From the UHGV virus genome UHGV-0382128: a stretch of 64,000 nt of DNA; one strand, 5' to 3'. Origin of the DNA: a virus. Of this stretch, positions 1-54,476 are shown piece by piece. The notes under the pieces were generated by a model. The model ran no database searches and was not told the DNA's origin. It worked only from the letters and a program-made list of their open reading frames with translations. The position numbers and the translations under genes were made by a program. Each line of letters starts with the position of its first letter. The first letter of the stretch is position 1.

Positions 1-59
1 CCGCTACACTCAGGGAGAAGAAGAATGCTAAAGCGCAGATGAGACGCATGAGTTACTCC

Positions 60-470
60 TTAAATTTTAAGTTTATCCATAGCTACAACGATAGGTTTTT
101 CCGAAGTGTCTAATATCCCTACCATCGGTACACCATTTTTGATTTCGAAGAACGGTTTGTTATTGCCAGAGCACAAACGTTTGTCGTTGTATTCGAGACG
201 TTGTGCCTTCCACGTTTCGAGGTTGAGTACGGACATAGGGCTGTCGTAGCACCAGGCCCCACCCTGCTCAACGATGAACACGTATCTGCTACCTTTGTAT
301 TTAAACAGGCTCTTCGCCTGACAGTACAGACCGTCAATTTCTGTACAGTAGAAATCGTCGGTACTATTGACGTACTTAATTCCAGCTGGCAATTGTGTTA
401 TTTTTGCTGATACGTTAACAGAGAACAGAATAGCAATTGCAATGAGAAGAGTGTTGATGATAGTTTTCAT
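60..470 (-). CDS. small secreted protein (N-terminal signal peptide), unknown function
   Basis: ORF 136 aa; hydrophobic N-terminus MKTIINTLLIAIAILFSVNVSA; AGGAG RBS upstream of ATG; four Cys. Confidence 0.6.
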   Translation of the reverse strand: MKTIINTLLIAIAILFSVNVSAKITQLPAGIKYVNSTDDFYCTEIDGLYCQAKSLFKYKGSRYVFIVEQGGAWCYDSPMSVLNLETWKAQRLEYNDKRLCSGNNKPFFEIKNGVPMVGILDTSEKPIVVAMDKLKI

Positions 471-480
471 GATAAACTCC

Positions 481-966
481 TTAGTATTTAGATTGTTCTA
501 CGTACTTCTTAACCAGATAACCGAATTCAGCAACGCCGATTTCGCCGAACCAAACCAGATAACCGGGGTCGATGTTGTAGTAATAACCGACGAGTTTCTT
601 GGTGTGTGGGTTGTATAGCGTTACGATATATTCCCAGCCACAAGCGTTAGCTTTACAGCCACCACTTTCAATCCAGATTTTGTTGTTGATATTTACCGGA
701 TACATGTTACCGCCAGGGCCATCCATGTAACCTTTAGAGCCGAACATTCCATCCAGCCCCACCGGATCTAGTGTTTTATCAACAACACCTTTAAATGACT
801 TATCGGTATCGTACAAGTCGTTGATGTTTGGACACGCATTTGGCTGACCTTCCCGAGCGTTCCCATCGCAGGTAAGTAATTCGTCTACGGAGGCCGCATC
901 TACAGTAGGTGTGGCACCGATAAACAAGAAAACCAGAAAGAACATCAGTGTATGTAAACGTTTCAT
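481..966 (-). CDS. small secreted Cys-containing protein, unknown function
   Basis: ORF 161 aa; signal-peptide-like N-terminus MKRLHTLMFFLVFLFIGATPTVDA; AAGGAG RBS 8 nt upstream. Confidence 0.6.
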   Translation of the reverse strand: MKRLHTLMFFLVFLFIGATPTVDAASVDELLTCDGNAREGQPNACPNINDLYDTDKSFKGVVDKTLDPVGLDGMFGSKGYMDGPGGNMYPVNINNKIWIESGGCKANACGWEYIVTLYNPHTKKLVGYYYNIDPGYLVWFGEIGVAEFGYLVKKYVEQSKY

Positions 967-984
967 TGTGACTACTCCTTTAGA

Positions 985-1377
985 TTATTCAGCAGGACGA
1001 TTTAAAGTAACTCGGCCAATTAATTCGGAGTTATGAAAGAAGTCCACAGCGGTATAGTTACCAACTGATAACGGATGTATGCTAACCGACATGACTTTTG
1101 GTTGTTCACAGGCGATATCGGTCAAACGTTGGTAGACTTGTGCACGGGTGTCAGCAATGAGTAATCCTGTACATGTTTCACCACGTACTAAACGATAAAC
1201 TTGCAGTTTACCGAAACTGCGCATTAACGTAGGTGTCTCATCCGGGTTGATAATCGGTGAGTCAGGAGCGGGTTCGTAATGGTTGACATCCGAACCGCCG
1301 AAAGCGTAAGTGCCAGTAATGCCGATTGCACAGAAAACAATGATAGTATAAAGTATAGTTCTAATATTCATTTTCAC
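985..1377 (-). CDS. small secreted protein, unknown function
   Basis: ORF 130 aa; signal-peptide-like N-terminus (ILYTIIVFCAIGITGTYA). Confidence 0.55.
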   Translation of the reverse strand: MKMNIRTILYTIIVFCAIGITGTYAFGGSDVNHYEPAPDSPIINPDETPTLMRSFGKLQVYRLVRGETCTGLLIADTRAQVYQRLTDIACEQPKVMSVSIHPLSVGNYTAVDFFHNSELIGRVTLNRPAE

Positions 1378-1399
1378 GCACTCTAAAAAAGATTAATAC

Positions 1400-1861
1400 T
1401 TATTTGTTAGGACGGGTGTGTCCACAGTTCTGGAAGAAAGTTTCAGATAGACGTTCGCCTTCTACGGTAAAGTTAGCGGCGTCATTACCATTGATACTCA
1501 CGCTGAAATTTTTGGCATTACCGATAGCATTAACGAAAGCAACCCAAGCGAGTTCTGCTTTGTCACTACCATCCACGGTAGGGATGTTATAGGTTTTGCC
1601 GTTTACGACAATATCCATCGTGTTATCTTCAGCGTTAGTTGCACCTACAGGTTCCCCGTAATACCAAACCATGCGACCGTAAAATTTGCGATTCGCGGTT
1701 TCAGTGTCACAGTTGATAGACAGTCCGTTTCCGGTGGTGTCTTCGATTTCGTAAACTGCCTGACCAGGGTTCTGTATTTGTTCCCAGCTGTTGATAGCGG
1801 CGTGTGCAGTATTGAATCCGAAAGTTAAAATGGTTACTAAGAACGCGATAAAAGTTTTCAT
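1400..1861 (-). CDS. small secreted protein, unknown function (start adjusted from track ORF 1400..1954)
   Basis: Internal ATG at 1861 gives MKTFIAFLVTILTFGFNTAHA signal peptide and is preceded by GAAGGAG RBS; upstream extension in the track lacks an RBS. Confidence 0.55.
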   Translation of the reverse strand: MKTFIAFLVTILTFGFNTAHAAINSWEQIQNPGQAVYEIEDTTGNGLSINCDTETANRKFYGRMVWYYGEPVGATNAEDNTMDIVVNGKTYNIPTVDGSDKAELAWVAFVNAIGNAKNFSVSINGNDAANFTVEGERLSETFFQNCGHTRPNK

Positions 1862-1907: not shown

Positions 1908-2279
1908 TTAAATGAGAAAGTGGGCAACTCTTTTAATCTGTCTATAACTATCATCGATACCTCTTATTATTTCCAGACGTTCTTCTGAAGAAAGGCATTG
2001 GTTAATGTCTTTGTCAAGATTGAACAATGTCATGAGTTTTGCAATCGAAACTGCCAGGTTGTCCGATAGCTCGTTGTTTTTACGCCATTCTTCGTTACGG
2101 AAAATACAGATAAGGTCTTTCACCTGGTTTTCAGCGAGCGGTTTGGCTAACTGTGCGTCGCGCTGTTCGAGAAGGTATGCTTCGTTGGTAAGTAATTGTT
2201 TCAGGTCTTCTGGGTAAAGGGCAGCGCGAGTAACGATCAGTAATACAACAAACGGGTCTTTGAACAATTCGTTTTTCAT
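1908..2279 (-). CDS. hypothetical protein (start adjusted; track ORF 1908..2330 begins at a GTG inside the leader hairpin)
   Basis: ATG at 2279 preceded by TAGGAGAA RBS; the upstream 17 codons overlap the conserved 5' leader hairpin. Confidence 0.55.
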   Translation of the reverse strand: MKNELFKDPFVVLLIVTRAALYPEDLKQLLTNEAYLLEQRDAQLAKPLAENQVKDLICIFRNEEWRKNNELSDNLAVSIAKLMTLFNLDKDINQCLSSEERLEIIRGIDDSYRQIKRVAHFLI

Positions 2280-2308: not shown

Positions 2309-2349
2309 GTGAGAGTAACTGAACTCTCACCTAAGTAATATATATCTGA
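2309..2349 (-). promoter_or_regulatory. conserved promoter-like motif CAGATATATATTACTTAGGTGAGAG plus 5' leader hairpin (GTGAGAGT-loop-ACTCTCAC), copy 1
   Basis: One of six copies of the same element, all on the minus strand immediately upstream of minus-strand genes; preceded by a terminator hairpin and T-run. Confidence 0.55.
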
Positions 2350-2367: not shown

Positions 2368-2403
2368 CGAACAAAAAATAAAAGGTGGGGGTAAACCCCC
2401 ACC
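2368..2403 (-). terminator. rho-independent terminator-like hairpin
   Basis: GGTGGGGGTAAACCCCCACC hairpin directly after the stop of gene 2408..2986, followed on the minus strand by TTTTATTTTTTGT. Confidence 0.6.
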
Positions 2404-2998: not shown

Positions 2999-3772
2999 CT
3001 AATAATTAAGTTTTACATCGGCAATAAACAGCAACTGTTTACCGTGTTGCTGCACTTCTTTCCAACCTAGTTTCATAGCAGCGTCAACAACATCTATCAT
3101 GCTGTAACGAGACATCAACGCGGTTGATTTTGTTCCTGACATTAAGTAAAGCGGCTCGTTGGGGCAACGGTCGCGTGCATCAGGAAGTTCCCGAGAGACT
3201 GCTGAGCCTTCGGGTACGGTAACAACATGAATCACGGTAAATGGTCTTTTGTGGGTTAAATAAATACGAAACCCAACGTGTTCAGACTCATGAAAGACTT
3301 TCTTTACAACCACATCTTTTAGTGTCGTCTGAACATCAATCCCAGGTAATATCGTGGATTCGCGAGAAACAAAACAACGACTATTTTCAACCATGGAGAA
3401 ATAATTACGTATCGGTAAACTGGCGTTATGATCGCGCAGTTTTTTGCTCAGTAGATCGAAGTTCAGTTCTTTAACTTTCTCTAGCCATTCTTTGGCTTGT
3501 TGTATGTAATAACTACCAACGGTGCGATAAGTCAATACCTTACCTGTGCTTACTTTCCAAAGTTTAACGCTTAGTGAATTCGGCTTATAGCGACGATACT
3601 CACCCCGCGTATAGTTGATGCGCTCGTAACGCTCTACATCGTCAACGGGCGCAGATTCGATCGATTGTAATTGCAACGTACGATCTAATCTATCGGCGAA
3701 TAGTAGTGATGTTAGCGGACCTTCGATCAAATACGGTTCGGTTTTAAAGATATCATCTAGATGGATTTTCAT
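2999..3772 (-). CDS. hypothetical protein, member of a 4-gene paralog family with conserved C-terminal motif (GW..V.K.G.QLLF.AD)
   Basis: C-terminus AMKLGWKEVQQHGKQLLFIADVKLNY aligns with the C-termini of ORFs 3840..4991, 5023..5577 and 5604..6338. Confidence 0.6.
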   Translation of the reverse strand: MKIHLDDIFKTEPYLIEGPLTSLLFADRLDRTLQLQSIESAPVDDVERYERINYTRGEYRRYKPNSLSVKLWKVSTGKVLTYRTVGSYYIQQAKEWLEKVKELNFDLLSKKLRDHNASLPIRNYFSMVENSRCFVSRESTILPGIDVQTTLKDVVVKKVFHESEHVGFRIYLTHKRPFTVIHVVTVPEGSAVSRELPDARDRCPNEPLYLMSGTKSTALMSRYSMIDVVDAAMKLGWKEVQQHGKQLLFIADVKLNY

Positions 3773-3839: not shown

Positions 3840-4991
3840 TTAGAGGTCAGCAACAAACAACAGCTGGCAGCCGTACTTTTGTACGTCCGCCCAACCGTAG
3901 TCTTTTCCGATTATAGGTAGATGTAAAAAATCCAGCTTCTCGTCTTTCGCTTTTAGTTTCGCCATTAACGTATTGGACTCCTCAGCACTGAGCAGTAATG
4001 CGGGCTCTTTTTCAGTACGTCCTTCTGCGGTTGGGAAGAAATTGTAATAGCTGCGAGTAGGTAAATCGACAGAAAAACTACGATTGCCTATTCTGGCGAT
4101 GAACGCAACTCCTTCACAGTTAGCATCTACACTACACGACCATCCCGCCTCCGTTAAAAGGTCTTTTAACAGACACCACACTTTAAGTTGGTTCTTAGAA
4201 ACTGTACGGTAAATAGCAAGATGTTCAGGAAGTAAATGTACGCCCATAACCACGTTTTCAGATTTCTCGTCAAGCAACTCTGGATGCTGTATCGGGAACA
4301 ATAATTCAGTGATACCCACGTTATCAATTTTGTTAACAAAATCAGTTAATTCATCTTTTAAGGTACACACGGATTTTTCTCCTTTGTCTTCAATAATCAG
4401 GTGGGGTTCGCCGCTAATTAAAATGTGGTAAACGAGATCGTCAGTAGAACGGTAAGTGAGCTTGATTGCTTTATCACTTAATATTTCGTAGCGGAAGAAA
4501 CTTTCGTACCAACTTGAGCCGAAATCGTTTTGTGTGAGTTCCTGCTCAACTTTGATGGTTTTTGCTTCAAAGCCGATTAACTCGCTTAATAACGCGAGTT
4601 CTTGTTTAGTTAAAATAGCTACACCGTGAAAGGGCACTTGTTCAAGCTGAAAACATAACTTAGTGACTTCACCATTTGGGAAGACCTTAAACATAATCTT
4701 CCGGTTGCTACTCTTTTCCCTAACAACGAGTTTACGGTAATTTAGTCCACAATTTGTGTAAGCCGCGAACTGGTAACCTTCAATTTCTTCATCGGAAGTA
4801 CAGACATCGACAGGCGCGATAATCTCATCGTATTCACTAAGTACACAGCAGCCCAATTTATAACCAAACAACGTATGTTGTAAAAAATAGTCGAGGGTTA
4901 AGCTTGGTAGTGGCCAAGCCCGATTATAGCATCTGTCCATCAGTTCTTTTAGGTACTTGGCATGTCTTGGTTTAGAAATAATATTTCGCAT
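3840..4991 (-). CDS. hypothetical protein, same C-terminal-motif paralog family
   Basis: C-terminus KDYGWADVQKYGCQLLFVADL. Confidence 0.6.
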   Translation of the reverse strand: MRNIISKPRHAKYLKELMDRCYNRAWPLPSLTLDYFLQHTLFGYKLGCCVLSEYDEIIAPVDVCTSDEEIEGYQFAAYTNCGLNYRKLVVREKSSNRKIMFKVFPNGEVTKLCFQLEQVPFHGVAILTKQELALLSELIGFEAKTIKVEQELTQNDFGSSWYESFFRYEILSDKAIKLTYRSTDDLVYHILISGEPHLIIEDKGEKSVCTLKDELTDFVNKIDNVGITELLFPIQHPELLDEKSENVVMGVHLLPEHLAIYRTVSKNQLKVWCLLKDLLTEAGWSCSVDANCEGVAFIARIGNRSFSVDLPTRSYYNFFPTAEGRTEKEPALLLSAEESNTLMAKLKAKDEKLDFLHLPIIGKDYGWADVQKYGCQLLFVADL

Positions 4992-6680: not shown

Positions 6681-6731
6681 GGGGCTGAACTGGCACTTCA
6701 GCCCCTATTCACTTAAGTAATATATATCTGA
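6681..6731 (-). promoter_or_regulatory. conserved promoter-like motif CAGATATATATTACTTAAGTGA plus leader hairpin (GGGGCTGAA-loop-TTCAGCCCC), copy 2
   Basis: Same AT-rich core as the other copies; perfect 9-bp inverted repeat immediately downstream on the minus strand. Confidence 0.5.
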
Positions 6732-7931: not shown

Positions 7932-8141
7932 ATGTCTATTAAAGAGTTCTCTTCTGCTGAGCATATTCCAGAAGAGTTTAAGAAAATCGGTAACGTCAGC
8001 GCTTTCGGCGATACCGTTGATCATGTAACTGGTAAACTGGCTGCTGAAGCCGAAAAAATTGGTGGTGACGCATTCAAAGTTATCGGTATTTCCGGCAACA
8101 ACAAACTGCACGGTAACGCGATTGTCTACAAAAAAGACTAA
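7932..8141 (+). CDS. DUF1471 (YhcN/BhsA/YdgH-like) domain protein lacking a signal peptide (start adjusted from 7914)
   Basis: C-terminal KIGGDAFKVIGISGNNKLHGNAIVYKK resembles the YhcN/BhsA family signature; GGAGAG RBS before ATG at 7932; no hydrophobic N-terminus. Confidence 0.5.
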   Translation: MSIKEFSSAEHIPEEFKKIGNVSAFGDTVDHVTGKLAAEAEKIGGDAFKVIGISGNNKLHGNAIVYKKD

Positions 8142-27989: not shown

Positions 27990-28928
27990 ATGGACTCACC
28001 TGCAATGACAACCGACGTAGAGCCAAGGTTATCGAATCGTTTATACAATAAACCCACCGTATTGTCCGTAGTTGCTACATCCAAATGTAATCTGGACTGT
28101 AGCTTCTGCGGCGGAGCCTATTACATGCATCGTGAAGATTCTCCGCGAGAGTTTCAACGTGAACGAATTTTGAAAGCGTTGGCGTCTAACCCAACCATTA
28201 CTGAAATTCAGTGGACTGGCGGTGAACCGCTACTGGCAACTCGAAAGATTGAGGCGTTTGTCGACGAATTAAAAACGATCCGTCCTGAACTCAAACACCA
28301 GATGTTCACGAACGGTTTAAAAATGCGTAAATCGCATCTACCGTTGTTAAAACAATTCGATGGTATATATGTTAGCATCGATGGGTTTAATCTTTCTGAA
28401 CGGCCTTTTAAGCGCTTTATTGATGATAATTGTCATGAAGCGTTAGAAGTAATTTACAGCTTGAATAATGTTAACACCTGGGCTGTTGTTACGAGGGAGA
28501 ATTTATCCAATAAAAGATGGCATGAAGATATCATTCAATTACATACTGCTATCTATCATTACGGTTTTCGTTCCATGTCCTTATTACTAGATAAAAACAT
28601 GCCAAAACCGTTATCTCCCGATCACGTTATGAACTTTATTTACGGGTATTTTAGAATTCAGGAGAATATAGAAAGATTAAACGTTCTAAATTCTAGAGAC
28701 TGCGGTTTTATTGTAAACAGATTCTTCGATCATGCTTGTAATGTCTGTAGCGAAAGTCTCAGGATAGACGCGGACGGGGAAGAAAACCAACTTAAAAATG
28801 TACCAATAACTACAAAAGCAGGGTGTAACCAACTAGCCTCCTCAATAGGTGTAGAAGCTTACGAGTACATTCGTCGTGTAGTGATGGCAGAGCGTAATAG
28901 AGGGGCGGAAAATGAGTCAAGAAAATAG
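27990..28928 (+). CDS. radical SAM enzyme, paralog 2
   Basis: TSKCNLDCSFCGG; three blocks of 100 percent nucleotide identity with rSAM paralog 1 (54, 38 and 84 nt). Confidence 0.75.
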   Translation: MDSPAMTTDVEPRLSNRLYNKPTVLSVVATSKCNLDCSFCGGAYYMHREDSPREFQRERILKALASNPTITEIQWTGGEPLLATRKIEAFVDELKTIRPELKHQMFTNGLKMRKSHLPLLKQFDGIYVSIDGFNLSERPFKRFIDDNCHEALEVIYSLNNVNTWAVVTRENLSNKRWHEDIIQLHTAIYHYGFRSMSLLLDKNMPKPLSPDHVMNFIYGYFRIQENIERLNVLNSRDCGFIVNRFFDHACNVCSESLRIDADGEENQLKNVPITTKAGCNQLASSIGVEAYEYIRRVVMAERNRGAENESRK

Positions 28929-30234
28929 TTATCCTAAACAACTGACTTATCAAATTGTTACAAATTTATCGTGTAACTTGGACTGTGAGTATTGTTACGA
29001 ACGTAAGTATCCCCGTAATAACAAAGCGGCGGATATTGTTGATTTTCTACACGCTTGTTTTGAACGAGATAAAGATCTGACAAACATCGAGGTCGTTATC
29101 GATATCATCGGTGGTGAGCCGTTTATGCAGCCTAAACTATTAAAGGCGGCATTTGAAACCGCAGAAGAGTTATGCGAAAAACATAATCGGCCGTTTATGT
29201 TTAGCATCTCTACTAACGGAACGTTGTTAGATAGACCTTTGAATAGAGAAATTATTGAACGTTGGAAAGACAGGCTTTCTATCGGCGTGTCTATTGATGG
29301 ATTGCCCGAATCGCACGATAAGTACCGGATTTTTACAACAACTCGTGAAGGATCTTACGAGGCCGCTGTGCGGGGCTATAACTACTTAAAAGAAGTCGGT
29401 ATTGCAGAACTTGGTGTAAAAGCGACCTTTACGTTGGAAACGTTACCGTTCTATGCTGCTGGAATGAAATCATTAATTGATATTACTGGCGGCGGAACTA
29501 TTTCTGGCAACGTAACCTTCGAAGACATTATGCCACGGAGCATGGCTACTTCAATCGCATTGCAGATGATGGACGTGGTAGATTATTGGGTTGAGAAGGG
29601 CTTACACACCAACCCACGTAACACTTTGTCGCACATCATTCCAGACGGGTTAGATTTTGATACTATCTGGGAACCAAACTGGCGTGATCAGTTATTGTAT
29701 AACGATACTGTACGTTTGAATCCAGAACGTTTACGCCCGTTCTGCGGTACGTTAACACACATGACATGCTTAGGATTTGATCGTAAGATCTTCGGTTGTA
29801 ACCGTTTCATGTCAACCGTAACATCACGTTCTGCCGTATTTGAATTAGTTGGGCGGGAATTTGTTAGCTTAGATGACGGGAAATTGCTGGAAGAGATTCA
29901 GACGCAATACACCAACTATCCTGAAACCTGTTTAGGTTGTCCAATGAAGCACGCTTGTGGTAGTTGTGCGGCTGCATCTTACGAGAATGGAGAAGGGACG
30001 CTAGAAGATCGCAAAGCTTATCACGCTGAACGCCGTCAATGTGGCTGGACAACTGCAAAGTTGATGGTTGCGGAATATTGGAAACAGAAAATGGGCACGA
30101 CGTCAGTGAAAGATTTTCATGACAATAGCATGTGTTATTGCCCTCGTTGCGTACGTGAACGTACCCAGAAAGAAAAACAATTGAGAGAAACCAAAGATGA
30201 AGCCAATTCTGATCCACAATATTACGAAGCGTAA
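28912..30234 (+). CDS. radical SAM enzyme with SPASM-like C-terminal Cys-rich domain (anSME-like architecture)
   Basis: N-terminal SCNLDCEYC (Cx3Cx2C); C-terminal CLGCPMKHACGSCAAASYENGEG and further Cys; start overlaps the stop of rSAM 2 by 17 nt. Confidence 0.75.
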   Translation: MSQENSYPKQLTYQIVTNLSCNLDCEYCYERKYPRNNKAADIVDFLHACFERDKDLTNIEVVIDIIGGEPFMQPKLLKAAFETAEELCEKHNRPFMFSISTNGTLLDRPLNREIIERWKDRLSIGVSIDGLPESHDKYRIFTTTREGSYEAAVRGYNYLKEVGIAELGVKATFTLETLPFYAAGMKSLIDITGGGTISGNVTFEDIMPRSMATSIALQMMDVVDYWVEKGLHTNPRNTLSHIIPDGLDFDTIWEPNWRDQLLYNDTVRLNPERLRPFCGTLTHMTCLGFDRKIFGCNRFMSTVTSRSAVFELVGREFVSLDDGKLLEEIQTQYTNYPETCLGCPMKHACGSCAAASYENGEGTLEDRKAYHAERRQCGWTTAKLMVAEYWKQKMGTTSVKDFHDNSMCYCPRCVRERTQKEKQLRETKDEANSDPQYYEA

Positions 30235-32752: not shown

Positions 32753-33244
32753 GTGAAAAGTATGATAAAACGTTTTCTTATTGTTATGGTTGGTGTTTTT
32801 TCATTGGCAGGATGTGCCTTACAACCGAATGGTGACGGCCAATTCTCGACTGTGCCGGTGGAGCCACATGATATGGTTATTTACACCTGTATGGGTGCAG
32901 AGCAAGATTTTGCAAATTACAAACCTGTCGTCAGCTCGACTAATATAATGTTAGGGTCAGTAACTGTACTCGATACTGGTGCTAACTGGGTAGCCACTTG
33001 GCCAAATGGTAAGATTGAGTCGCCGCAACTTTATAAAGATTTATTAGGTAAAGTTAATGGGAATATTGATCCTATCACAGGACAACGTTACTATCGTGTA
33101 AATGGTTTACTTTCAAAAACGCCAACGTTTGCGTATTCTACTTTAGAATATAAAACGGGTGATGGTAAAGGCATTACTTTCTTCCACTGTAAAGAAGGTG
33201 TAGCGTCTGACACTGGAACAATGCTCCATCCTGCGGAACAATAA
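32753..33244 (+). CDS. lipoprotein (163 aa)
   Basis: Signal peptide with lipobox LAGC (MKSMIKRFLIVMVGVFSLAGCALQ); isolated plus-strand gene with its own terminator. Confidence 0.6.
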   Translation: MKSMIKRFLIVMVGVFSLAGCALQPNGDGQFSTVPVEPHDMVIYTCMGAEQDFANYKPVVSSTNIMLGSVTVLDTGANWVATWPNGKIESPQLYKDLLGKVNGNIDPITGQRYYRVNGLLSKTPTFAYSTLEYKTGDGKGITFFHCKEGVASDTGTMLHPAEQ

Positions 33245-40212: not shown

Positions 40213-40253
40213 GTGAGAGTAACTGAACTCTCACCTAGGTAATATATATCTGA
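40213..40253 (-). promoter_or_regulatory. conserved promoter-like motif plus leader hairpin, copy 3 (leader nearly identical to copy 1)
   Basis: CAGATATATATTACCTAGGTGAGAGTTCAGTTACTCTCACTTAACGAAACCATTTTAGGAGAA. Confidence 0.55.
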
Positions 40254-44589: not shown

Positions 44590-44636
44590 GGAGTGAACGT
44601 AAATTTCACTCTCTCTCCTAGGTAATATATATCTGA
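44590..44636 (-). promoter_or_regulatory. conserved promoter-like motif plus leader stem-loop, copy 4
   Basis: TTCTCAGATATATATTACCTAGGAGAGAGAGTGAA...; preceded by terminator hairpin 44649-44683. Confidence 0.5.
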
Positions 44637-44686: not shown

Positions 44687-46807
44687 TTAAATAACTACCC
44701 AGCTTTTACCATCGGAACCAATCTGCATTAGCGTAATACTTTCATTGGTATCAATGGGTTTGGCAAGACCTTCTGTCCCACTCTTTGGAGTGATGAGAAC
44801 GTTTGAATTTTCCGGTTTAACGGTGATCTTACCAGCCTTATTTGCCACGATCTGAATATTTCTGCCCACGCTATATTCTAGATCAGGAATAGTAAGTTGG
44901 CCGCCACGGTTGGTGGGTGGGAAATACACATAAGACGACACATCTTCCTCAGATAACACTATGCTACCAGAATCACGATTGACCGAGATCTCAAACTTAG
45001 AAATATCGATATCATAGGCAGTAACTTTCGTAATATCCGTCAGAACCAATTCGTTCAAATCGGTCTTAGCTGGACTGTTCGCCAGATCAAATGGAGTACC
45101 ATTCGTACCGTCCAGCACAGGTGTGACTGTGGTTTTATTGGCACCAGGATAAATGATTTCAAGCGTATGCCAGTTATTATCGTACGCACCAAAAGTTCCT
45201 AATTTCGCATTCTGCTTTTTATGATGCATCAGATTAAGATTCTTAGCGTCGGTCTGTAAGAAAAAAGACATTAGGTACGGGTTTGTATCAGCCACACTAG
45301 CGTCAGCAAGTGTAGTACCAGAAGGTAGGTCGGACGCGGAGATACGCCAATAAAGCCCTAAGCCGAAACGATTTTCTGCTAAATCACCTTTTAGTCTAAA
45401 AGTAACGGTCAGTCGTCCACCGTAACGTATCATGTCCGCAGCAGATGTCATTGACTTAGTTACATTCCAAGGTTTCATCGTTACAGCCTTTCTTAATTCG
45501 ACGAAATGCCCGTTTCCATCCTCAGAATCTTGCACGGTTACGTTACAATCAACGATATTGTTCCAACCCTGCCCTTTCAGGGAACCATCTCCACGACGTC
45601 CGTTATAACCCACAGACTCTACTAATGGGGTATAGCTTCTTACCACATTCATATTGTCTTTGAGCTCTTTAGTGTCGTTCTTCGTCAGGAGCATTGCACC
45701 ATTCGCTGTTCTTGATAATATCTCAGCAGCTATTCTCTCTGAGATAATACCGCGTCGTGCCCAAGAACTGAAATGGCTATTCCTTGTTTCAGACGTCCAG
45801 TTTTTATTACTACGGGTGGCAGCACCGTAGTAGGCAGCACCAGCGATATCAGGATCGTCAGTGGGATCATTAGTCGGTACACGTTGGCCATTATCGTCGT
45901 ACATGAATGGAACAAAAAAGATATTTTTTTGTTCATTGTTACGATAATTACCGTATATGGTTTCATATTGAACAGGATATTTTTCCTTCCAATAGTAGGT
46001 AGTGTCCCCGCAGATCCATGGTACTTCGGCGGTGTCGTACTCGGGCATCTGAGAGAGATGGTCAGAGAGATCAGTTCGGAAACGCTCTACCATTGCCATA
46101 AATAACGCTGGTTGTTGTGCGTAACCTACTTTAGTCAGATCATACTCCCCCTGCATCCACACTACAGCCAAGAGTTTATTTTTAGGATTAACGTCCAGAG
46201 CTTTTTTGGTCCGGCTAACTAAATCTTTATAAAGAGGTTTTTCCACCCCCCATACCGATGACGTCGCAGAGGCTCCTGTGGCTTCATCGAAGGTACCTTC
46301 TGCACCACCCGTGAAAGCAGAACCGCCGCGTGCGCAGGGTACTAGTAAGATACCAGCGTTGCTAGGAATATACGGGAGAAGACGCTTCGCGATGTGTAGA
46401 CCTTGACCCACACATCCGTATTCACCTTTGTCCAAATTGGCTTTGGGGTGCGAGAATACGGACATATCTTGCACGTCGTGCAGACAGTGATCCGCTGGAA
46501 TGACGTCGTTATACTTACAATCAGCCCCGTTAGGCGTTACCTTCGCACGGCGCGCCATCTGTTTAATTCGCGGATCGGGAGCGTCCAACGTCGCCGGTAG
46601 AGGCAACCCTTCACCATAACTCATCGCATTAGATTGCCCGGCTATAGGAATCACGAAGTAATACTCCGGCTCCGTCGTGCCCTGAAGTTTTGCAATATCA
46701 ATTTTATATTCTTTTTCTTCCTTAGAAAGAAGAACTAACGCACCTTTGAGATCGCCAGAGAAATTGTCGAGTTCATGGATACGTTTCTTTCCAATTGGCT
46801 GACTCAT
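44687..46807 (-). CDS. tailspike/fibre protein with SGNH (GDSL-type) esterase-like domain
   Basis: GQSNA motif at about residue 56; N-terminal KKRIHELDNFSGDLKGALVLLSKEEKEYK shared with the 1479-aa fibre (KKIRLHDLHPYTGDIGEGVLLFSKDEKDYK), suggesting a common attachment domain. Confidence 0.6.
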   Translation of the reverse strand: MSQPIGKKRIHELDNFSGDLKGALVLLSKEEKEYKIDIAKLQGTTEPEYYFVIPIAGQSNAMSYGEGLPLPATLDAPDPRIKQMARRAKVTPNGADCKYNDVIPADHCLHDVQDMSVFSHPKANLDKGEYGCVGQGLHIAKRLLPYIPSNAGILLVPCARGGSAFTGGAEGTFDEATGASATSSVWGVEKPLYKDLVSRTKKALDVNPKNKLLAVVWMQGEYDLTKVGYAQQPALFMAMVERFRTDLSDHLSQMPEYDTAEVPWICGDTTYYWKEKYPVQYETIYGNYRNNEQKNIFFVPFMYDDNGQRVPTNDPTDDPDIAGAAYYGAATRSNKNWTSETRNSHFSSWARRGIISERIAAEILSRTANGAMLLTKNDTKELKDNMNVVRSYTPLVESVGYNGRRGDGSLKGQGWNNIVDCNVTVQDSEDGNGHFVELRKAVTMKPWNVTKSMTSAADMIRYGGRLTVTFRLKGDLAENRFGLGLYWRISASDLPSGTTLADASVADTNPYLMSFFLQTDAKNLNLMHHKKQNAKLGTFGAYDNNWHTLEIIYPGANKTTVTPVLDGTNGTPFDLANSPAKTDLNELVLTDITKVTAYDIDISKFEISVNRDSGSIVLSEEDVSSYVYFPPTNRGGQLTIPDLEYSVGRNIQIVANKAGKITVKPENSNVLITPKSGTEGLAKPIDTNESITLMQIGSDGKSWVVI

Positions 46808-47942: not shown

Positions 47943-48173
47943 TTAAGATTTTCTACATGTTATTGAATCGAAAGCACCACGCCCAACCCAACGCCAATTA
48001 TAATGATGATCAGCTTTATAAAGTGTGTATCTGCCCTGCTTTTTTACGTCGAAAATATTGATCGTAGTCTCTTCATTACCCAGCTTAGCTGTGCCGTAAC
48101 ATACAGGTTCGGGTAGTTGTTGACATCCACTTACTGTAAGCAATGCGAAACCCAGTAAAACTTTTCTTAACAT
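47943..48173 (-). CDS. small lipoprotein (76 aa)
   Basis: MLRKVLLGFALLTVSGC lipobox-type signal; located between the two receptor-binding-like paralogs. Confidence 0.5.
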   Translation of the reverse strand: MLRKVLLGFALLTVSGCQQLPEPVCYGTAKLGNEETTINIFDVKKQGRYTLYKADHHYNWRWVGRGAFDSITCRKS

Positions 48174-48183
48174 CTTTCTGTCC

Positions 48184-48729
48184 TTAGACTACACTTATTG
48201 AAATTGTTGCGCCGTTCTGATTAAATAACCAGTTGGTTGCCGTCTTAGCCTCATAGCGCCGGACGCCGTTACTGTAAGAGTACGGTAGAAAAGTAATCTT
48301 CGTTCCGTTAAACGAAAGCGTAATATTCTGATTTGGTCCATTGGTTAGGGCCATGTAGATAATACCAGTATTTTGTACTTGGCTAAGATGTGTGACGCTA
48401 CAACCCAAGATCGAACCTGACACCGAACCGGCCGCATTTTGTGTTTGCACACGATTCGATACTGTAGAACCAGCACCCGTTGTTGTAGAGTTGTTCGAAT
48501 ACCCCCCATACGTATTTGTAATAGGAACCCACTGCGTGTTCGTAGCCTGCACCAAAACAACATAGGTTGATCGGCCTACAACGAGTTTAAGATCCTCTAC
48601 GCTACGCCCGACCATCTGCGACATGTTAAATGGCGTGCTCAGTTTAAGCTTATTACCTGCCACACTCATCCACTCCTGACCGGTTACTGCCTTTGCTGAG
48701 CTTCCAACCCAGCCGGATGCTACCCCCAT
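48184..48729 (-). CDS. receptor-binding-like protein (181 aa), intact paralog
   Basis: N-terminal MGVASGWVGSSAKAVTGQEWMSVAGNKLKLSTPFNMSQMVGRS conserved with 47422..47865; GGAGG RBS; immediately downstream of the 1479-aa fibre gene. Confidence 0.55.
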   Translation of the reverse strand: MGVASGWVGSSAKAVTGQEWMSVAGNKLKLSTPFNMSQMVGRSVEDLKLVVGRSTYVVLVQATNTQWVPITNTYGGYSNNSTTTGAGSTVSNRVQTQNAAGSVSGSILGCSVTHLSQVQNTGIIYMALTNGPNQNITLSFNGTKITFLPYSYSNGVRRYEAKTATNWLFNQNGATISISVV

Positions 48730-48743
48730 AAATCCTCCAAACT

Positions 48744-48771
48744 AAGATAGGGGGATTACTCCCCCTATCTT
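48744..48771 (-). promoter_or_regulatory. intercistronic stem-loop (perfect 12-bp stem) between fibre gene and downstream receptor-binding-like gene
   Basis: AAGATAGGGGGA-GTAA-TCCCCCTATCTT overlapping the fibre stop codon and just upstream of the RBS of 48184..48729. Confidence 0.45.
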
Positions 48772-51700
48772 TAATTCCCCTTGAGTTCTTTAAGCTCTCG
48801 GCGAAGAGACTTCATACCCTCTACTAACAGCGCAATAACGCCATTGTAATTTAGACGTAAACGTTTTTCGCCTGAAATGGCATCGTCGTCCTCGGACACA
48901 AGTTCAGGTAACGCTTCTAAAGCGTCCTGAGCAATTAGACCTACAGAAGTCTGCCAGCCGTCGTCAGGATGCTGAATTTCGTACAAATACCCTGTTAGTA
49001 ACTCTAACCGATCCAAAGCTTTATCCAGCTTCACCAGATTACGTTTGTTACGACGGTCAGAACGAATCTGTACGTCGTTAAACGAACCGTTACCGTTGCC
49101 AGTAACGTTATGTCCAAAGTTTACTTGACCGTTGGAATTATTAAAAGACAACGGACGTAATCCGTTCCAGGAACCCGCTGCGGCTTGTCCGGCATCGGTT
49201 ACTAAGAAATAGGTATTGGCACCATCGTTACGTAAAATAAAACCGTAGGTACCGTAAGCGATTCGAAAATCAGGGTATTTAGTGGCCAATTTACCGTTAA
49301 CGGTTAAATCGCCGCCTATAGTACCGCCCCCCGAAGGTAGTGCACCCACTTCCGCAGCAGTTGGCTTGTTTCTCGTATTGTAAGCACGACGCCAGCCTGG
49401 TGAGTATCCATCGCCGTTAAATACGTAGATAAACTCCGCATTAGTGAGTGCTCCGCCGACGCTCGTCGTTGTGGCGGTCGTTATACGGATCGTGTAGTTG
49501 TTTGTGCTGTTGCCGTTACTAATGACTTCTATAACGGCCCCAGCTAACGGAATGACACCACAACCCGTCTCGCTGTGAGGTATGGACGCACTGGCGGCAT
49601 AAGCCCACGCACAGCGAGCAACCCACGATCTTGTGGTAAATGCGCCGTTATTTTTCAATAACGTCACTAGCTGTGCTGTAGTTATTGCACCGCCATCAGC
49701 GCCAGTTTCTAACCAACCACTAGGTGATGCCGGACAACCTATTTCGGCTGGCCCTAACGATATATTTCTAGTGCCATCAAACGCAATACCATTGATGGTT
49801 CTTGCGGTTTGCAACTTTGTTGCCGTGGCTGCGTTTCCGGTGGTCGACTGATTCCCTGTTTGGTTTACTCCAGGTAAACTGATGTCTTTAGTACCATCAA
49901 AAGCCACGCCACCTATATTTCGCGCAGTCTGGAGCTTAGTCGCTGTCGCCGCATTCCCCGTAGTCGATTGGTTACCGGTTTGGTTTACGCCAGGAAGATT
50001 AACGTCTTTTGTCCCATCGAACACCACACCGCCGATCTTACGTGCGGTTTGTAACTTAGTAGCGGTCGCTGCATTACCTGTCGTATTCTGGTTGCCTTGC
50101 TGGTTAACGCCCGGTAAATTGATGTCACCTGTACCGTCAAAGCTAACGCCTCCGATCCTGCGAGCGGTTTTCAGTTTCGTCGCGGTAGCGGCGTTGCCGG
50201 TAGTATCCTGATTACCTGTGGCATTTACACCAGGAATGCTATCACGGGCAGTATAAACTTGTGCCCAATCTGACCACGGCGCATCAGCAGTATCACGTCG
50301 ACTACGAATATAAACGGGTGCGTGCGCACCGCTCGTCCCCGACCATCCGATTAACAGTTCTCCTTCGCCTAGCGCAGCAGAACCGCCCAAATGCAGTAAG
50401 TTACCATAAGCGGTTGGATAACCGTTATTGTAAACTTCGTACATCTGAATACCGGGTGTACCTTTGTTTGATCCAGTCAGTGCAGTAACACGTCCACGTC
50501 CTACCAACGTGTTGATATTGATGTCTCTAGACCCATCAAATTTCACACCGTTGATGTTTCGAGCCGTTTGTAATTTGGTTGCGGTTCCCGCGTTCCCAGA
50601 GGTGTTTTGATTACCCTGTTGGTTTACACCAGGGAGGCTAATGTCTCCGCTACCGTCGAAACTTACACCGCCGATTAAACGGGCTGTTTTCAGTTTCGTT
50701 GCCGTAGCAGCATTGCCTGTTAACTCACCTGATAACCCTTTTGCAAAGGTCTGTTTTTCTGCCCACGTATGCGCTGCATTCAATACGGGCATCTGGCGGC
50801 TAGTAATAGTACGTTTACCCTTTTCACCAGCGACGCGAACAGCAAAGAAGCGATAGTTAGCAGTAGACACTGTACCACGCCAGACCAACATACTCCGGCC
50901 AGTACCGGTGTCCTCCGACGCCCCTACAAGAATAGTGACCAAGTTACCGTCGATAACACCCCAATCCATTCCCGCAGGAATGTTTTTCATGGTATTCAAT
51001 GGTGTACTTATCATCTGGCCAGGAACGAAGTCGAAGGTTTGCCAGTCTAACGGATCGACCTTAGCAGCAACCCCACCGATCCCTAAAGTCAACGGGAGTG
51101 AATAGGATGTGAAAATTTCTCGCCATTCGCTCCAGGCGTTTCCTGTACGAATTCGTTGGAACTTGCGACCTTTCGAAGTTGCGCCTGTACCGTATGTGGT
51201 ATAATTTTGTTCAACACCTGAACCGTCTAAGCGTAAGGTAACTTCGCAAACACCTAGCAAGGTTGCGCCAGCAGAGTCTGTTAACGGACTGTCTGTAGCC
51301 TCACCGGTAACACTAAAGCGACCCGGTTTAGTTAAGTCGTTAAAGCTACCCTTATAGTAGGCACCGTCTACCTGATACCCAACCTGAATCCAATCTTCCC
51401 ACTGCGGATTAGACGAATCCCAAGTCGCAGTCAAACCACGGACATACATCGTACCACGTCGTGTGGTGTATCGTTGCAACCGTCCGTAAAGACCACCTTC
51501 CATGACTTCTAATACGCCTTGCGCATTACCGCCCTCTTCAGGATAATGTCTGTCGAACACCGCTAACGAACTGGACGAGTTACGCCAGTTACCCATGTGC
51601 TCAGCGCCGCCTAAGGAGTTCAGATCGATCGATGTAGATAACGGACGTACACCGGTAGTTACCATTCTCCACGGTGACCACGGGCCATTAGTTCCGTTCC

Positions 51701-54065: not shown

Positions 54066-54476
54066 TCAGACCGTTAGTTCTCCACATAACTCAACGTCGA
54101 TACCGAACGTCATTCCCACTTCTTGAAGTTTGTTCGCCAGTAGGTGACGATGACAAAACTTACCTGCGGGACAATAGCACATCAAAACCAAATCTTCGTG
54201 TCTAAGCAACGAGACCAACGTTTCGGCATCGGCATCTAACAGTCGTTCGAGTTTGTACAAATACTTTATCGTGTATTCACGCTCAGCGGCAGCGTCTTGG
54301 GCAGAATTTTTATACGCCATTAGGAAATCCCAGTCGGGGGCGAGTTCCTTTCGCCCTGACTTCACAGTGATATCCACTGCGTGAAATCCTTTCTGCTTAG
54401 CTAATCGCCACTTAGCGAGTTGTAGCGTCCAGATTCGCATTAGGAACGAGTCTGCGATTCGGCCATCAGTGCACAA
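54066..54476 (-). CDS. hypothetical protein with C-terminal Cys/His motif (DUF4326-like)
   Basis: LVLMCYCPAGKFCHRHLLANKL resembles the C.C....CH signature recalled for DUF4326; start uncertain. Confidence 0.35.
   Translation of the reverse strand: MCTDGRIADSFLMRIWTLQLAKWRLAKQKGFHAVDITVKSGRKELAPDWDFLMAYKNSAQDAAAEREYTIKYLYKLERLLDADAETLVSLLRHEDLVLMCYCPAGKFCHRHLLANKLQEVGMTFGIDVELCGELTV

What the first reader, a model, noticed from the sequence alone, without database searches (positions are those of the whole stretch)
60..1861. Cluster of four consecutive small signal-peptide proteins
Four adjacent genes (130-161 aa) each encode a cleavable-looking signal peptide and several Cys, all with strong RBS. 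Secreted or periplasmic phage proteins are often involved in superinfection exclusion or host envelope modification.
Basis: partly seen in the sequence, partly recalled or inferred. Interest (0 to 1): 0.45.

Follow-up and report, generated by a model that had tools for sequence, protein, structure and literature searches.

The report
Jumbo-phage operon of exported periplasmic proteins
A giant phage carries an apparently early-expressed operon of at least five small exported proteins; one has the fold of the bacterial lysozyme inhibitor Ivy, and it and its neighbour also occur as a gene pair in about a third of E. coli genomes, so the operon probably guards the cell wall against other phages.

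Summary
Four tightly packed minus-strand genes (60-470, 481-966, 985-1371, 1400-1861) each start with a Sec-type signal peptide and carry an even number of conserved Cys in the mature part. A fifth such gene starts at base 49 and runs off the window. Three of the four, not all, have strong RBSs.

The window is a distant SPN3US/phiEaH2-like jumbo phage. The cluster is syntenic with SPN3US gp180-gp183, which are absent from the published 86-protein virion list. In each phage checked it lies downstream of a conserved AT-rich motif of the kind described for jumbo-phage early promoters.

The four proteins belong to four families:
- **ORF4:** homologue of E. coli YfjT.
- **ORF1:** SPN3US gp182 family. 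Fold unresolved.
- **ORF3:** SPN3US gp180 family. Fold not examined.

ORF2+ORF1 is also an adjacent gene pair in 1861 of 5426 complete E. coli genomes. A preprint reports that knocking down an E. coli Ivy-like "CKANTC" protein raises T7 plating.

Best reading, which is inferred: early periplasmic proteins that protect the envelope, with ORF2 inhibiting peptidoglycan-cleaving enzymes of incoming phages. Interest is moderate.

The parts
2384..2403 (-). Intrinsic-terminator-like hairpin (GGTGGGGG-TTTA-CCCCCACC followed by a T run). It ends the upstream gene (2408-2986) and marks the upstream edge of the operon.
2330..2348 (-). Conserved AT-rich motif CAGATATATATTACTTAGG, a putative early promoter for the virion RNA polymerase. 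It is followed by a leader that can form a hairpin (GTGAGAG...CTCTCAC).
   Evidence: There are five copies in the window, against 0.03 expected. All are on the minus strand and in intergenic positions. The same motif lies directly upstream of SPN3US gp180 and of the first cluster gene in contig L008. It also lies upstream of the cluster in phiEaH2, pEa_SNUABM_29 and Proteus phage 7. It fits the review's description of jumbo-phage early promoters (PMC7598289). No transcript data exist for this phage.
1908..2279 (-). First gene after the motif: 123 aa, no convincing signal peptide, function unknown (phrog_27024; weak T4 y05I-like hit).
1400..1861 (-). ORF4, 153 aa, signal peptide cleaved at AHA|A. 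Member of the YfjT family, known from the E. coli CP4-57 island as an uncharacterised periplasmic protein. Two conserved Cys (C51, C146).
   Evidence: BLASTP against E. coli K-12 YfjT: E = 7e-15, 25% identity over 133 aa. Its 82%-identical homologue in L008 carries the precomputed Pfam family PF27224 YfjT. Alignment.
985..1371 (-). ORF3, 128 aa (alternative GTG start at 1377), signal peptide or possibly signal anchor ending TYA|F, weak RBS. SPN3US gp180 family (phrog_9424). Two conserved Cys in the mature part. Not a lipoprotein.
   Evidence: 50% identity to SPN3US gp180, and found in 53 phage records. phrog_9424 at 4.9e-41. The Cys inside the hydrophobic core is absent from homologues P0070 and pEa_SNUABM_29.
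481..966 (-). ORF2, 161 aa, signal peptide cleaved at VDA|A. Ivy-fold periplasmic protein with a disulfide-closed loop C104-K-A-N-A-C109 between two strands, and an extra N-terminal helical part with C33/C45.
   Evidence: - AF2 model: pLDDT 79.9, pTM 0.73.
- BLASTP places CKANAC on Ivy's CKPHDC, E = 3e-5.
- NCBIfam Ivy model NF007443: E = 0.0018, far below its cut-off.
- Invariant residues C104, K105, C109, G110, W111.
60..470 (-). ORF1, 136 aa, signal peptide cleaved at VSA|K. SPN3US gp182 family (phrog_8968), with paralogues gp181 and gp183. Four invariant Cys. Predicted all-beta, fold unresolved. It forms a two-gene module with ORF2 that is also found in E. coli chromosomes.
   Evidence: - phrog_8968 at 1.1e-30.
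- hhalign to the gp181 family 92% probability, to gp183 62%.
- Only 31 hits among 1.84 billion representative proteins.
- 82% identical to the gene next to the ORF2 homologue in E. coli O103:H2.
1..49 (-). Start of a fifth signal-peptide gene (MRLICALAFFFSLSVA...), of the SPN3US gp183 type, cut off by the window edge. Its RBS GGAG lies at 56-59.
   Evidence: Translation. It matches the N-terminus of the 129-aa protein of L008 (MRFICALAFFFSLSVTAST...), which is 48% identical to SPN3US gp183.

Best explanation
**Shown or strongly supported.** The region is one tightly packed operon of a SPN3US-like jumbo phage. It encodes at least five small proteins exported by Sec signal peptides to the periplasm, where their paired cysteines would form disulfides. 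They are not virion components. They belong to four unrelated families:
- ORF2: Ivy fold.
- ORF4: YfjT family.
- ORF1, together with the truncated fifth gene: the SPN3US gp181-183 family.
- ORF3: the gp180 family.

The locus is a variable cassette. Relatives carry 0, 1 or 2 YfjT copies. They carry either a gp181-type gene or the Ivy-like gene in the same slot. ORF2+ORF1 is a two-gene module shared with chromosomal islands in about one third of E. coli genomes.

**Inferred.** The operon is transcribed early, from the conserved AT-rich motif at 2330-2348, by the injected virion RNA polymerase. Its products then fill the periplasm and protect the infected cell's envelope.

ORF2 would bind peptidoglycan-cleaving glycosidases with its protruding disulfide loop, as Ivy does. 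The likely targets are the tail or ejection lysins of incoming phages, and perhaps host lytic transglycosylases. That would block superinfection and lysis from without, which is what T4 Spackle does with a different fold.

ORF1, ORF3 and ORF4 would be further periplasmic binders or inhibitors aimed at other envelope or phage targets. ORF1 probably works together with ORF2.
For: **Export.** Signal peptides and even numbers of conserved Cys in all four proteins.

**Operon structure.** Gaps of 10-28 nt, and the only terminator-like site lies upstream of the motif.

**Conservation.** The cluster is syntenic in five or more related phages.

**Not structural.** gp180-183 are absent from the SPN3US virion proteome (PMC5694885).

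**Promoter.**
- Five copies of the motif against 0.03 expected, all co-oriented with the genes and intergenic.
- The motif sits directly upstream of the cluster in SPN3US and L008.
- It fits the published description of jumbo-phage early promoters (PMC7598289; PMC8244752).

**Ivy link.**
- The loop aligns with Ivy's inhibitory CKPHDC loop.
- Ivy-type proteins inhibit C-type lysozyme and, at least weakly, lytic transglycosylases (PMC10139938).

**Precedent.** T4 Spackle is an early, signal-peptide-bearing, disulfide-containing periplasmic protein. It inhibits the tail lysozyme gp5 and causes superinfection exclusion (PMC7677548).

**Anti-phage hint.** Knock-down of E. coli O121 Hypo_04657, an Ivy-like protein with loop CKANTC, raised T7 plating (bioRxiv 10.1101/2024.04.20.590424). 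E. coli members of ORF2's family carry exactly CKANTC.

**Module.**
- ORF2 and ORF1 homologues are adjacent in E. coli O103:H2, where ORF1 is 82% identical.
- They are adjacent in 1861 of 5426 complete genomes, and the DNA homology ends at the borders of the two genes.
- In the genomes examined the genes lie in a CP4-57-like island. Their neighbours are patatin, DUF932, antirestriction, RadC and CbtA/CbeA genes.
Against: - No experiment on this phage or on SPN3US addresses localisation, timing or exclusion.
- ORF2 lacks the P-H-D residues of Ivy's inhibitory loop, including the His that enters the lysozyme active site. It also falls below the Pfam and NCBIfam Ivy thresholds, so its target may not be a lysozyme at all.
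- E. coli Ivy is only a weak inhibitor of lytic transglycosylases in vitro and in vivo (PMC10139938).
- I did not confirm that Hypo_04657 is an ORF2 homologue. CRISPRi on it would also silence the downstream ORF1 homologue. The source is a preprint.
- 'Early' rests on a sequence motif alone.
- ORF1, ORF3 and ORF4 have no functional lead. The ORF1 model is of low confidence.
- No signal-peptide predictor was run. ORF3 could be membrane-anchored.
Confidence: 0.45

Rival explanations
1. Control of the host cell wall rather than exclusion of other phages. On this view the proteins restrain the host's own lytic transglycosylases and autolysins, or dampen envelope-stress signalling (Rcs/Cpx). That would keep the swollen, long-lived infected cell intact until programmed lysis.
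For: - Restraint of lytic transglycosylases is the physiological role proposed for Ivy and MliC, and both are induced by peptidoglycan damage (PMC10139938).
- ORF2 has the Ivy fold.
- Early periplasmic expression is equally compatible with this reading.
Against: - E. coli Ivy is a weak inhibitor of lytic transglycosylases and does not rescue their overexpression.
- A housekeeping role fits poorly with the cassette-like turnover of the locus. It also fits poorly with the module's residence in E. coli islands among anti-restriction and toxin-antitoxin genes.
- The T7 plating phenotype points to phage-phage or host-phage conflict.
Confidence: 0.2
2. Lysis-timing module. On this view the periplasmic proteins sense superinfection or hold back the endolysin/holin pathway, as the periplasmic antiholin RI does in T4 lysis inhibition. 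ORF2 would act as a brake on the phage's own SLT-type endolysin.
For: - The proteins are small, periplasmic and non-virion.
- Relatives encode an SLT-domain protein about 7 kb downstream of the cluster (L008 17385-18083).
- An Ivy fold could plausibly inhibit an SLT enzyme.
- The comparison with T4 RI rests on my own knowledge, not on a tool result.
Against: - There is no holin, spanin or endolysin gene in or next to the cluster.
- None of the four has a SAR-like or antiholin-like organisation.
- The E. coli island copies exist without any phage lysis genes.
Confidence: 0.1
3. Passenger genes. On this view the cluster is a hotspot where secreted-protein genes picked up from enterobacterial islands accumulate. 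They would contribute little to lytic growth. Any benefit would come only in a carrier or episomal state, or would accrue to the bacterial host.
For: - Gene content varies between close relatives.
- ORF2, ORF1 and ORF4 have E. coli island homologues.
- A related 222-kb phage genome is deposited as a 'plasmid' of a clinical E. coli.
Against: - The gp180, gp182 and gp183 types are kept in order, behind the same promoter motif, across Salmonella, Erwinia, Proteus and E. coli phages of two genera. That argues for selection in the phage.
- Family-invariant Cys and loop residues indicate purifying selection.
Confidence: 0.15
4. Structural or lysis-machinery proteins, that is virion components, spanins or receptor-blocking lipoproteins of the T5 Llp or Cor type.
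For: The proteins are small and have hydrophobic N-termini. SPN3US gp180 happens to have a lipobox-like LAAC.
Against: - gp180-183 are not in the SPN3US virion proteome.
- The Cys in ORF3's hydrophobic core is preceded by F, which is not lipobox-compatible. It is missing altogether in homologues.
- There is no C-terminal membrane helix, coiled coil or proline-rich o-spanin character.
Confidence: 0.03

Closest known systems
Ivy, inhibitor of vertebrate lysozyme (E. coli YkfE, PDB 1XS0; P. aeruginosa Ivyp1, PDB 1UUZ; Pfam PF08816)
   Same: ORF2 shares several features with Ivy:
- The overall fold: a five-stranded sheet with flanking helices, with 108-110 residues superposed at 2.6 A.
- The periplasmic signal peptide.
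- A disulfide-closed C-x4-C loop in the same position, starting C-K and followed by G.
   Different: - The loop reads CKANAC, not CKPHDC, so the inserting His is missing.
- There is an extra N-terminal helical segment with a second disulfide (C33/C45).
- Sequence identity is about 14-23%, and scores fall below the curated Pfam and NCBIfam thresholds.
- It is encoded by a jumbo phage and by E. coli islands, not by the core ivy locus.
E. coli O121 Hypo_04657, an Ivy-like 'CKANTC' protein (bioRxiv 10.1101/2024.04.20.590424)
   Same: - It is described as Ivy-like, with loop CKANTC in place of CKPHDC.
- E. coli members of ORF2's family (P0011, P0012, P0015; 51-62% identical to ORF2) carry exactly this loop.
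- Knock-down increased T7 plating.
   Different: - It is chromosomal, not phage-borne.
- It is annotated as a longer protein of about 225 aa. The extra N-terminal segment resembles the start of the neighbouring 180-aa gene.
- Identity with ORF2's family is inferred from the loop motif. I did not check the sequence itself.
T4 Spackle (gp61.3)
   Same: It is an early phage gene product with a cleaved signal peptide. It is small, periplasmic and disulfide-bonded, and is not a virion protein. It inhibits a phage tail lysozyme and so excludes superinfecting phage (PMC7677548). This is the model for how ORF2 may work.
   Different: It has an all-alpha helical bundle and binds beside the active-site cleft rather than inserting a loop. 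There is no sequence or fold relationship to any of the four proteins.
E. coli K-12 CP4-57 island pair YfjS (lipoprotein, PF20494) and YfjT (PF27224)
   Same: - ORF4 is a YfjT homologue (E = 7e-15). The signal peptide, the W, the I-N-C motif and the C-terminal Cys are all conserved.
- Both loci are small cassettes of exported proteins in mobile DNA.
   Different: - YfjT itself is uncharacterised.
- No phage protein reaches the YfjS/YafY Pfam model. There is only a weak motif resemblance to the gp183 type (hhalign E = 0.009, 4% probability).
SPN3US gp180-gp183 and their orthologues in phiEaH2, pEa_SNUABM_29 and Proteus phage 7
   Same: - Same position, between the gp176-179 genes and the gp184-186 (SbcC-like) genes.
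- Same promoter motif and same orientation.
- ORF3 corresponds to gp180 (50% identity), ORF1 to gp182 (28%), and the truncated fifth gene to gp183.
   Different: - In the window's lineage the gp181 slot holds the unrelated Ivy-like ORF2.
- One or two YfjT genes are added upstream.
- All of these genes are annotated only as hypothetical proteins.

Membership tests
Ivy family (Pfam PF08816 / NCBIfam NF007443) | Ivy three-dimensional fold | tested here: met
Ivy family (Pfam PF08816 / NCBIfam NF007443) | Sequence score above the curated family threshold | tested here: not met
   - ORF2 has no Pfam Ivy hit at E <= 0.1.
- NF007443 scores 18.2 bits against a cut-off of 180.
- The E. coli homologue scores 16.8 bits against the Pfam cut-off of 21.
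Ivy family (Pfam PF08816 / NCBIfam NF007443) | Conserved inhibitory loop CKPHDC closed by a disulfide, with the His entering the lysozyme active site | tested here: not met
   The C-x4-C frame and the Lys are kept (C104-K-A-N-A-C109, invariant C/K/C/G/W), but P-H-D is replaced. The motif as a family hallmark is from PMC3660660 and the preprint. The role of the His is from my own knowledge.
Ivy family (Pfam PF08816 / NCBIfam NF007443) | Periplasmic location through a cleaved signal peptide | tested here: inconclusive
   A rule-based scan predicts a signal peptide cleaved at VDA|A, with no further membrane helix. No dedicated predictor or experiment was available.
Ivy family (Pfam PF08816 / NCBIfam NF007443) | Inhibition of C-type lysozyme or of lytic transglycosylase | not testable with these tools
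   This needs purified protein and enzyme assays.
YfjT family (Pfam PF27224) | Significant sequence similarity to E. coli YfjT over the whole mature protein | tested here: met
   - ORF4 against K-12 YfjT: E = 7e-15, 25% identity over 133 aa.
- Residues conserved in all four aligned sequences include W26, I49, N50, C51 and C146.
- The 82%-identical L008 homologue carries PF27224 in the precomputed table.
- The local Pfam copy lacks PF27224, so the model itself could not be run.
Phage superinfection-exclusion proteins of the T4 Spackle type (functional class) | Early expression | tested here: inconclusive
   Only a conserved early-promoter-like motif upstream supports this. There are no transcript data.
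Phage superinfection-exclusion proteins of the T4 Spackle type (functional class) | Exported and not part of the virion | tested here: met
   Signal peptides are predicted. The SPN3US homologues are absent from the virion proteome.
Phage superinfection-exclusion proteins of the T4 Spackle type (functional class) | Homology or shared fold with Spackle | tested here: not met
   Spackle is an alpha-helical bundle. ORF2 is alpha/beta with the Ivy fold, and ORF1 is predicted all-beta.
Phage superinfection-exclusion proteins of the T4 Spackle type (functional class) | Blocks infection by a second phage | not testable with these tools
   The only indirect hint is the preprint's knock-down of a likely E. 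coli homologue, which raised T7 plating.
Lipoproteins (spanins; T5 Llp / Cor-type exclusion lipoproteins) | Conserved lipobox [LVI][ASTVI][GAS]C at the end of the signal peptide | tested here: not met
   - ORF1, ORF2 and ORF4 have no Cys in the signal peptide.
- ORF3 has I-V-F-C, with F at position -1.
- That Cys is absent from homologues P0070 and pEa_SNUABM_29.
SPN3US gp180-183 cluster (PHROGs 9424 and 8968) | Sequence membership and synteny | tested here: met
   - ORF3 matches phrog_9424 at 4.9e-41 and ORF1 matches phrog_8968 at 1.1e-30.
- Gene order and flanking genes match SPN3US.
- ORF2 and ORF4 are not members.

The most novel reading that the evidence does not exclude
ORF2+ORF1 is a mobile two-gene periplasmic anti-phage module. 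It would consist of an Ivy-fold inhibitor with a re-targeted loop and an all-beta partner protein. It would stop incoming phages at the cell-wall penetration step by neutralising their peptidoglycan-cleaving entry enzymes. Jumbo phages would use it for superinfection exclusion. About a third of E. coli genomes would use it, from CP4-type islands, as an envelope-level defence system that has not been catalogued. The other exported proteins of the operon (the YfjT, gp180 and gp183 types) would be further members of a shared pool of periplasmic counter-measures exchanged between giant phages and genomic islands.
Probability: 0.25. Interest if true: 0.75.

Novelty: new variant of a known kind. Interest (0 to 1): 0.55.

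Why it matters
**Jumbo-phage biology.** Nothing is known about how nucleus-forming SPN3US-like jumbo phages deal with the host envelope during their long infection, or whether they exclude competitors. This operon is a concrete candidate that can be cloned, and it is conserved across two genera.

**Ivy-like proteins in phages.**
- ORF2 found nothing in a 50,697-genome phage collection.
- E. coli Ivy found one record in that collection.
- The ORF2 model found nothing in the viral structure library.

So an Ivy-fold protein with a rewired loop extends the proteinaceous lysozyme-inhibitor idea to phage-phage conflict.

**E. coli.** The ORF2+ORF1 pair sits unannotated in 1861 of 5426 complete E. 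coli genomes. Assigning it a function would annotate a very common pair of hypothetical genes. It could also add a periplasmic layer to the known anti-phage repertoire, and it would give the uncharacterised YfjT family a context.

Tried and rejected
**Family and sequence searches with little or no result**
- Pfam, NCBIfam and PADLOC scans of the four proteins gave nothing above threshold. The only lead was a sub-threshold Ivy hit.
- PDB sequence searches gave nothing significant for any of the four. ORF2, ORF3 and the ORF1 profile produced only chance matches.
- The YfjT profile weakly resembles antibody V domains (E >= 0.04). I treat this as chance.

**ORF1 fold**

**One superfamily?**
- I suspected from a shared 'G..C.G.hhhh' motif that ORF1, ORF3, gp181-183, YfjS and ORF2 might all be diverged Ivy-like paralogues.
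- hhalign on signal-peptide-trimmed profiles links only ORF1 with gp181 (92%) and gp183 (62%).
- It does not link ORF1 or ORF3 to ORF2 or Ivy, and gives only E of about 0.01 to YfjS.
- I therefore dropped this idea.

**Other hypotheses rejected**
- Lipoprotein or spanin: there is no conserved lipobox.
- Spanin pair elsewhere in the window: the lipoprotein at 47943-48173 has no i-spanin-like neighbour.
- Virion protein: rejected from the SPN3US proteome table.

**Checks that were uninformative or unavailable**
- Searches of the SPN3US papers for gp180-183 found no discussion of them.
- GC content does not reveal the direction of transfer between phage and E. coli.
- Genes behind the other four copies of the promoter motif are mostly of unknown function, so they cannot confirm 'early'.
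- The original Ivy family paper (PMC1847508) is not in the library.
Full report
**1. What is there**

The left end of the window carries four consecutive minus-strand genes:
- ORF1, 60-470, 136 aa.
- ORF2, 481-966, 161 aa.
- ORF3, 985-1371, 128 aa (a GTG at 1377 would give 130 aa).
- ORF4, 1400-1861, 153 aa.

The gaps between them are 10, 18 and 28 nt. The region contains no terminator-like site apart from one hairpin at 2384-2403, upstream of the whole unit.

ORF1, ORF2 and ORF4 are preceded by AAGGAG-type ribosome-binding sites. ORF3 is not.

Each protein begins with one or two basic residues and an uncharged hydrophobic stretch of about 13-17 residues. A small-x-small motif follows: VSA|K, VDA|A, TYA|F and AHA|A. 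No later segment is hydrophobic enough for a membrane helix. No SignalP-type tool was available, so this rests on my own rule-based scan and on the same pattern in all homologues.

Each mature protein has an even number of family-conserved cysteines: four, four, two and two. That is typical of disulfide-bonded periplasmic proteins.

A fifth gene with the same kind of N-terminus (MRLICALAFFFSLSVA...) starts at base 49 and runs off the window. A run of four or more signal-peptide genes among about 75 genes has P = 0.004 to 0.037, depending on how many other genes are counted as positive.

**2. Genomic setting**

At the DNA level the window matches deposited phages only in one short intergenic element. 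At the protein level it is a distant relative of the SPN3US / phiEaH2 group of jumbo phages.

The cluster is syntenic with SPN3US gp180-gp183. All four of those also have signal-peptide-like N-termini:
- ORF3 corresponds to gp180 (50% identity).
- ORF1 corresponds to gp182 (28%).
- The truncated fifth gene corresponds to gp183.

The same four-gene run is present in phiEaH2, pEa_SNUABM_29 and Proteus phage 7.

Closer relatives show that the locus turns over:
- A 64-kb metagenomic contig has six exported proteins in a row: YfjT, YfjT, gp180 type, Ivy-like, gp182 type, gp183 type.
- A 222-kb record deposited as a 'plasmid' of a clinical E. coli has five, with one YfjT-like gene.
- Only the window has a 123-aa non-exported gene in front of its single YfjT-like gene.

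**3. Transcription**

The short element shared with SPN3US and phiEaH2 is a motif, CAGATATATATTACYTAGG, preceded by a T/A-rich stretch. The window has five copies against 0.03 expected. All are on the minus strand, in intergenic positions and co-oriented with the downstream genes.

One copy (2330-2348) heads the operon. The same motif lies immediately upstream of gp180 in SPN3US and of the first cluster gene in the metagenomic contig. It also lies upstream of the cluster in the other relatives.

A review states that each RNA-polymerase-encoding jumbo phage has such a conserved motif upstream of early operons. The motif is described as about 10 nt long, AT-rich and centred near -10, and wherever tested it was the early promoter used by the virion RNA polymerase (PMC7598289; see also PMC8244752). 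I therefore infer early expression. There are no transcript data for this group.

**4. The four proteins are four families**

After trimming signal peptides, profile comparison links ORF1 only to the gp181 type (92% probability) and the gp183 type (62%). It does not link ORF1, ORF2, ORF3 and ORF4 to each other.

*ORF2.*
- It has no hit in 50,697 phage genomes.
- It has 51-65% identical homologues in E. coli chromosomes.
- A sub-threshold NCBIfam hit to the Ivy lysozyme inhibitor (E = 0.0018) led to a direct comparison. BLASTP aligns ESGGCKANACGWEYIVTLYN with Ivy's MSACKPHDCGSQRIAVMWS (E = 3e-5).
- The C104-x4-C109 loop sits between two strands, as Ivy's inhibitory loop does. C, K, C, G and W are invariant in the family.
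- The P-H-D of CKPHDC is replaced, and curated family thresholds are not reached.
- ORF2 is thus an Ivy-fold protein but not a canonical Ivy.

*ORF4.* It is a homologue of E. coli YfjT from the CP4-57 island (E = 7e-15; alignment). YfjT is uncharacterised.

*ORF1.* Its family is tiny, with 31 hits among 1.84 billion representative proteins. Its model is all-beta but of low confidence, and matches nothing specific.

*ORF3.* It has relatives only among these phages. Homologues lacking the Cys in the hydrophobic core show that it is not a lipoprotein.

**5. Link to E. coli islands**

In E. coli O103:H2 the ORF2 homologue is followed immediately by a 136-aa gene that is 82% identical to ORF1.

A sensitive DNA search with window 1-1000 finds matches in 2399 of 5426 complete E. 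coli genomes. In 1861 of them the match covers both genes. Identity is about 74%, and all but three of the 2512 matching places are chromosomal. In the listed chromosomal matches the homology stops at the borders of the two genes, window 29-977.

In the genomes examined, the ORF2 homologue sits, with or without the ORF1 homologue, in a CP4-57-like island. Its neighbours are dynamin-like GTPase, YjcZ, patatin, DUF932, antirestriction, RadC and CbtA/CbeA genes. In K-12's CP4-57 the same neighbourhood holds YfjS and YfjT.

Three of the four phage proteins thus belong to families shared with these islands. GC content does not show the direction of transfer.

**6. Functional evidence from the literature**

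- Ivy and MliC are periplasmic inhibitors of C-type lysozyme. They also inhibit lytic transglycosylases, though weakly in E. coli (PMC10139938).
- T4 Spackle is an early, signal-peptide-bearing, disulfide-containing periplasmic protein. It inhibits the tail lysozyme gp5 and so excludes superinfecting phage (PMC7677548).
- A preprint reports that CRISPRi knock-down of E. coli O121 Hypo_04657 raises T7 plating. That protein is Ivy-like, with loop 'CKANTC' instead of 'CKPHDC' (10.1101/2024.04.20.590424).
- E. coli members of ORF2's family have exactly CKANTC. I infer that it is the same family but could not check the sequence. Knock-down would also silence the downstream ORF1 homologue.
- The SPN3US virion proteome of 86 proteins lacks gp180-gp183 (PMC5694885 Suppl. 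Table 1).

**7. Interpretation**

*Well supported.* This is an operon of exported, non-virion periplasmic proteins, conserved but modular in this phage group. One member has the Ivy fold and one belongs to the YfjT family.

*Inferred (confidence about 0.45).* Early expression fills the periplasm with proteins that protect the envelope. ORF2 would use its disulfide loop to neutralise peptidoglycan-cleaving enzymes of incoming phages, giving superinfection exclusion or protection from lysis from without. ORF1 would be its partner.

*Rivals.*
- Control of host autolysins or envelope stress signalling (0.2).
- Passenger genes useful mainly in a carrier state or to the host (0.15).
- Lysis timing (0.1).
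- Structural, spanin or lipoprotein roles (0.03, essentially excluded).

**8. Novelty**

- Phage-encoded Ivy-like proteins are almost absent from the collections searched. ORF2 finds nothing in the phage genomes or in the viral structure library, and E. coli Ivy finds one phage.
- The cluster is annotated only as hypothetical proteins. I found no paper that discusses it.
- The principle, a periplasmic proteinaceous inhibitor and early exported exclusion proteins, is known. I therefore rate this a new variant of a known kind.
- Interest is moderate. It is raised by the very wide and unannotated occurrence of the ORF2+ORF1 module in E. coli.

Noticed in passing
window 2330-2348, 6712-6730, 40234-40252, 44617-44635, 63693-63711 (all minus strand): There are five copies of a nearly identical motif of about 26 nt, TCAGATATATATTACYTAGGTGAGAG, each in an intergenic gap and co-oriented with the downstream genes. 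It is probably the early (virion RNA polymerase) promoter of this phage group. In at least two copies the transcribed leader can form a hairpin (GTGAGAG...CTCTCAC).
   Followed up: partly
window 1-49 (minus strand): A fifth signal-peptide gene of the SPN3US gp183 type begins here and is cut off by the window edge, so the cluster is larger than the finding states.
   Followed up: yes
window 47943-48173 (minus strand): A 76-aa protein has a canonical lipobox (LLTVSG|C) and further Cys. This small lipoprotein is reminiscent, from memory, of receptor-blocking exclusion lipoproteins such as T5 Llp. Its 181-aa neighbour (48184-48729) has no membrane helix, so the two are not a spanin pair.
   Followed up: partly
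window 32753-33244 (plus strand) and 54440-54637 (minus strand): Two more exported proteins lie outside the cluster. One is a 160-163-aa lipoprotein with lipobox SLAG|C. The other is a 65-aa protein with a signal peptide ending ASA|E.
   Followed up: no
window 7932-8141 (plus strand): A 69-aa YdgH/BhsA/McbA-like (DUF1471) protein has no signal peptide, although this domain is normally periplasmic in enterobacteria. Its SPN3US counterpart gp172 is the smallest protein detected in the virion (PMC5694885).
   Followed up: partly
L017 = NZ_CP173450.1 (E. coli strain 98232, 'plasmid p98232-contig_4', 221,873 bp): A RefSeq 'plasmid' of a urinary E. coli isolate carries the same exported-protein cluster at about 74% DNA identity, and its size matches this phage group. 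It is probably a related jumbo-phage genome, which hints at E. coli as host and at a carrier or episomal state.
   Followed up: partly
L016 3806-4483 (E. coli O103:H2) and proteins P0007, P0009, P0011, P0012: Many E. coli copies of the ORF2 homologue are annotated as proteins of about 225 aa. Their first 65 residues or so resemble the start of the neighbouring 180-aa exported protein, and an internal Met plus signal peptide follows. This is either a deletion-generated fusion or a mis-called start.
   Followed up: partly
window 2999-3772 and 3840-4991 (minus strand): Two adjacent genes of 257 and 383 aa share a C-terminal domain (both end ...GKQLLFIADV / GCQLLFVADL) and hit the same PHROGs (26772, 33648, 24489). 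They form a local paralogue family of unknown function.
   Followed up: no
window 28912-30234 (plus strand), 44687-46807 and 48771-53210 (minus strand): The window also encodes a radical-SAM protein, a 706-aa protein with a SASA carbohydrate-esterase domain plus DUF6645, and a 1479-aa tail fibre with a T4 gp34-like trimerisation domain and an intramolecular chaperone domain.
   Followed up: no
MK524177.1 (Escherichia phage PHB10) 14591-14950: This is the only record among 50,697 phage genomes with a tblastn match to canonical E. coli Ivy (38% identity, E = 8e-23). It is annotated as a hypothetical protein.
   Followed up: no
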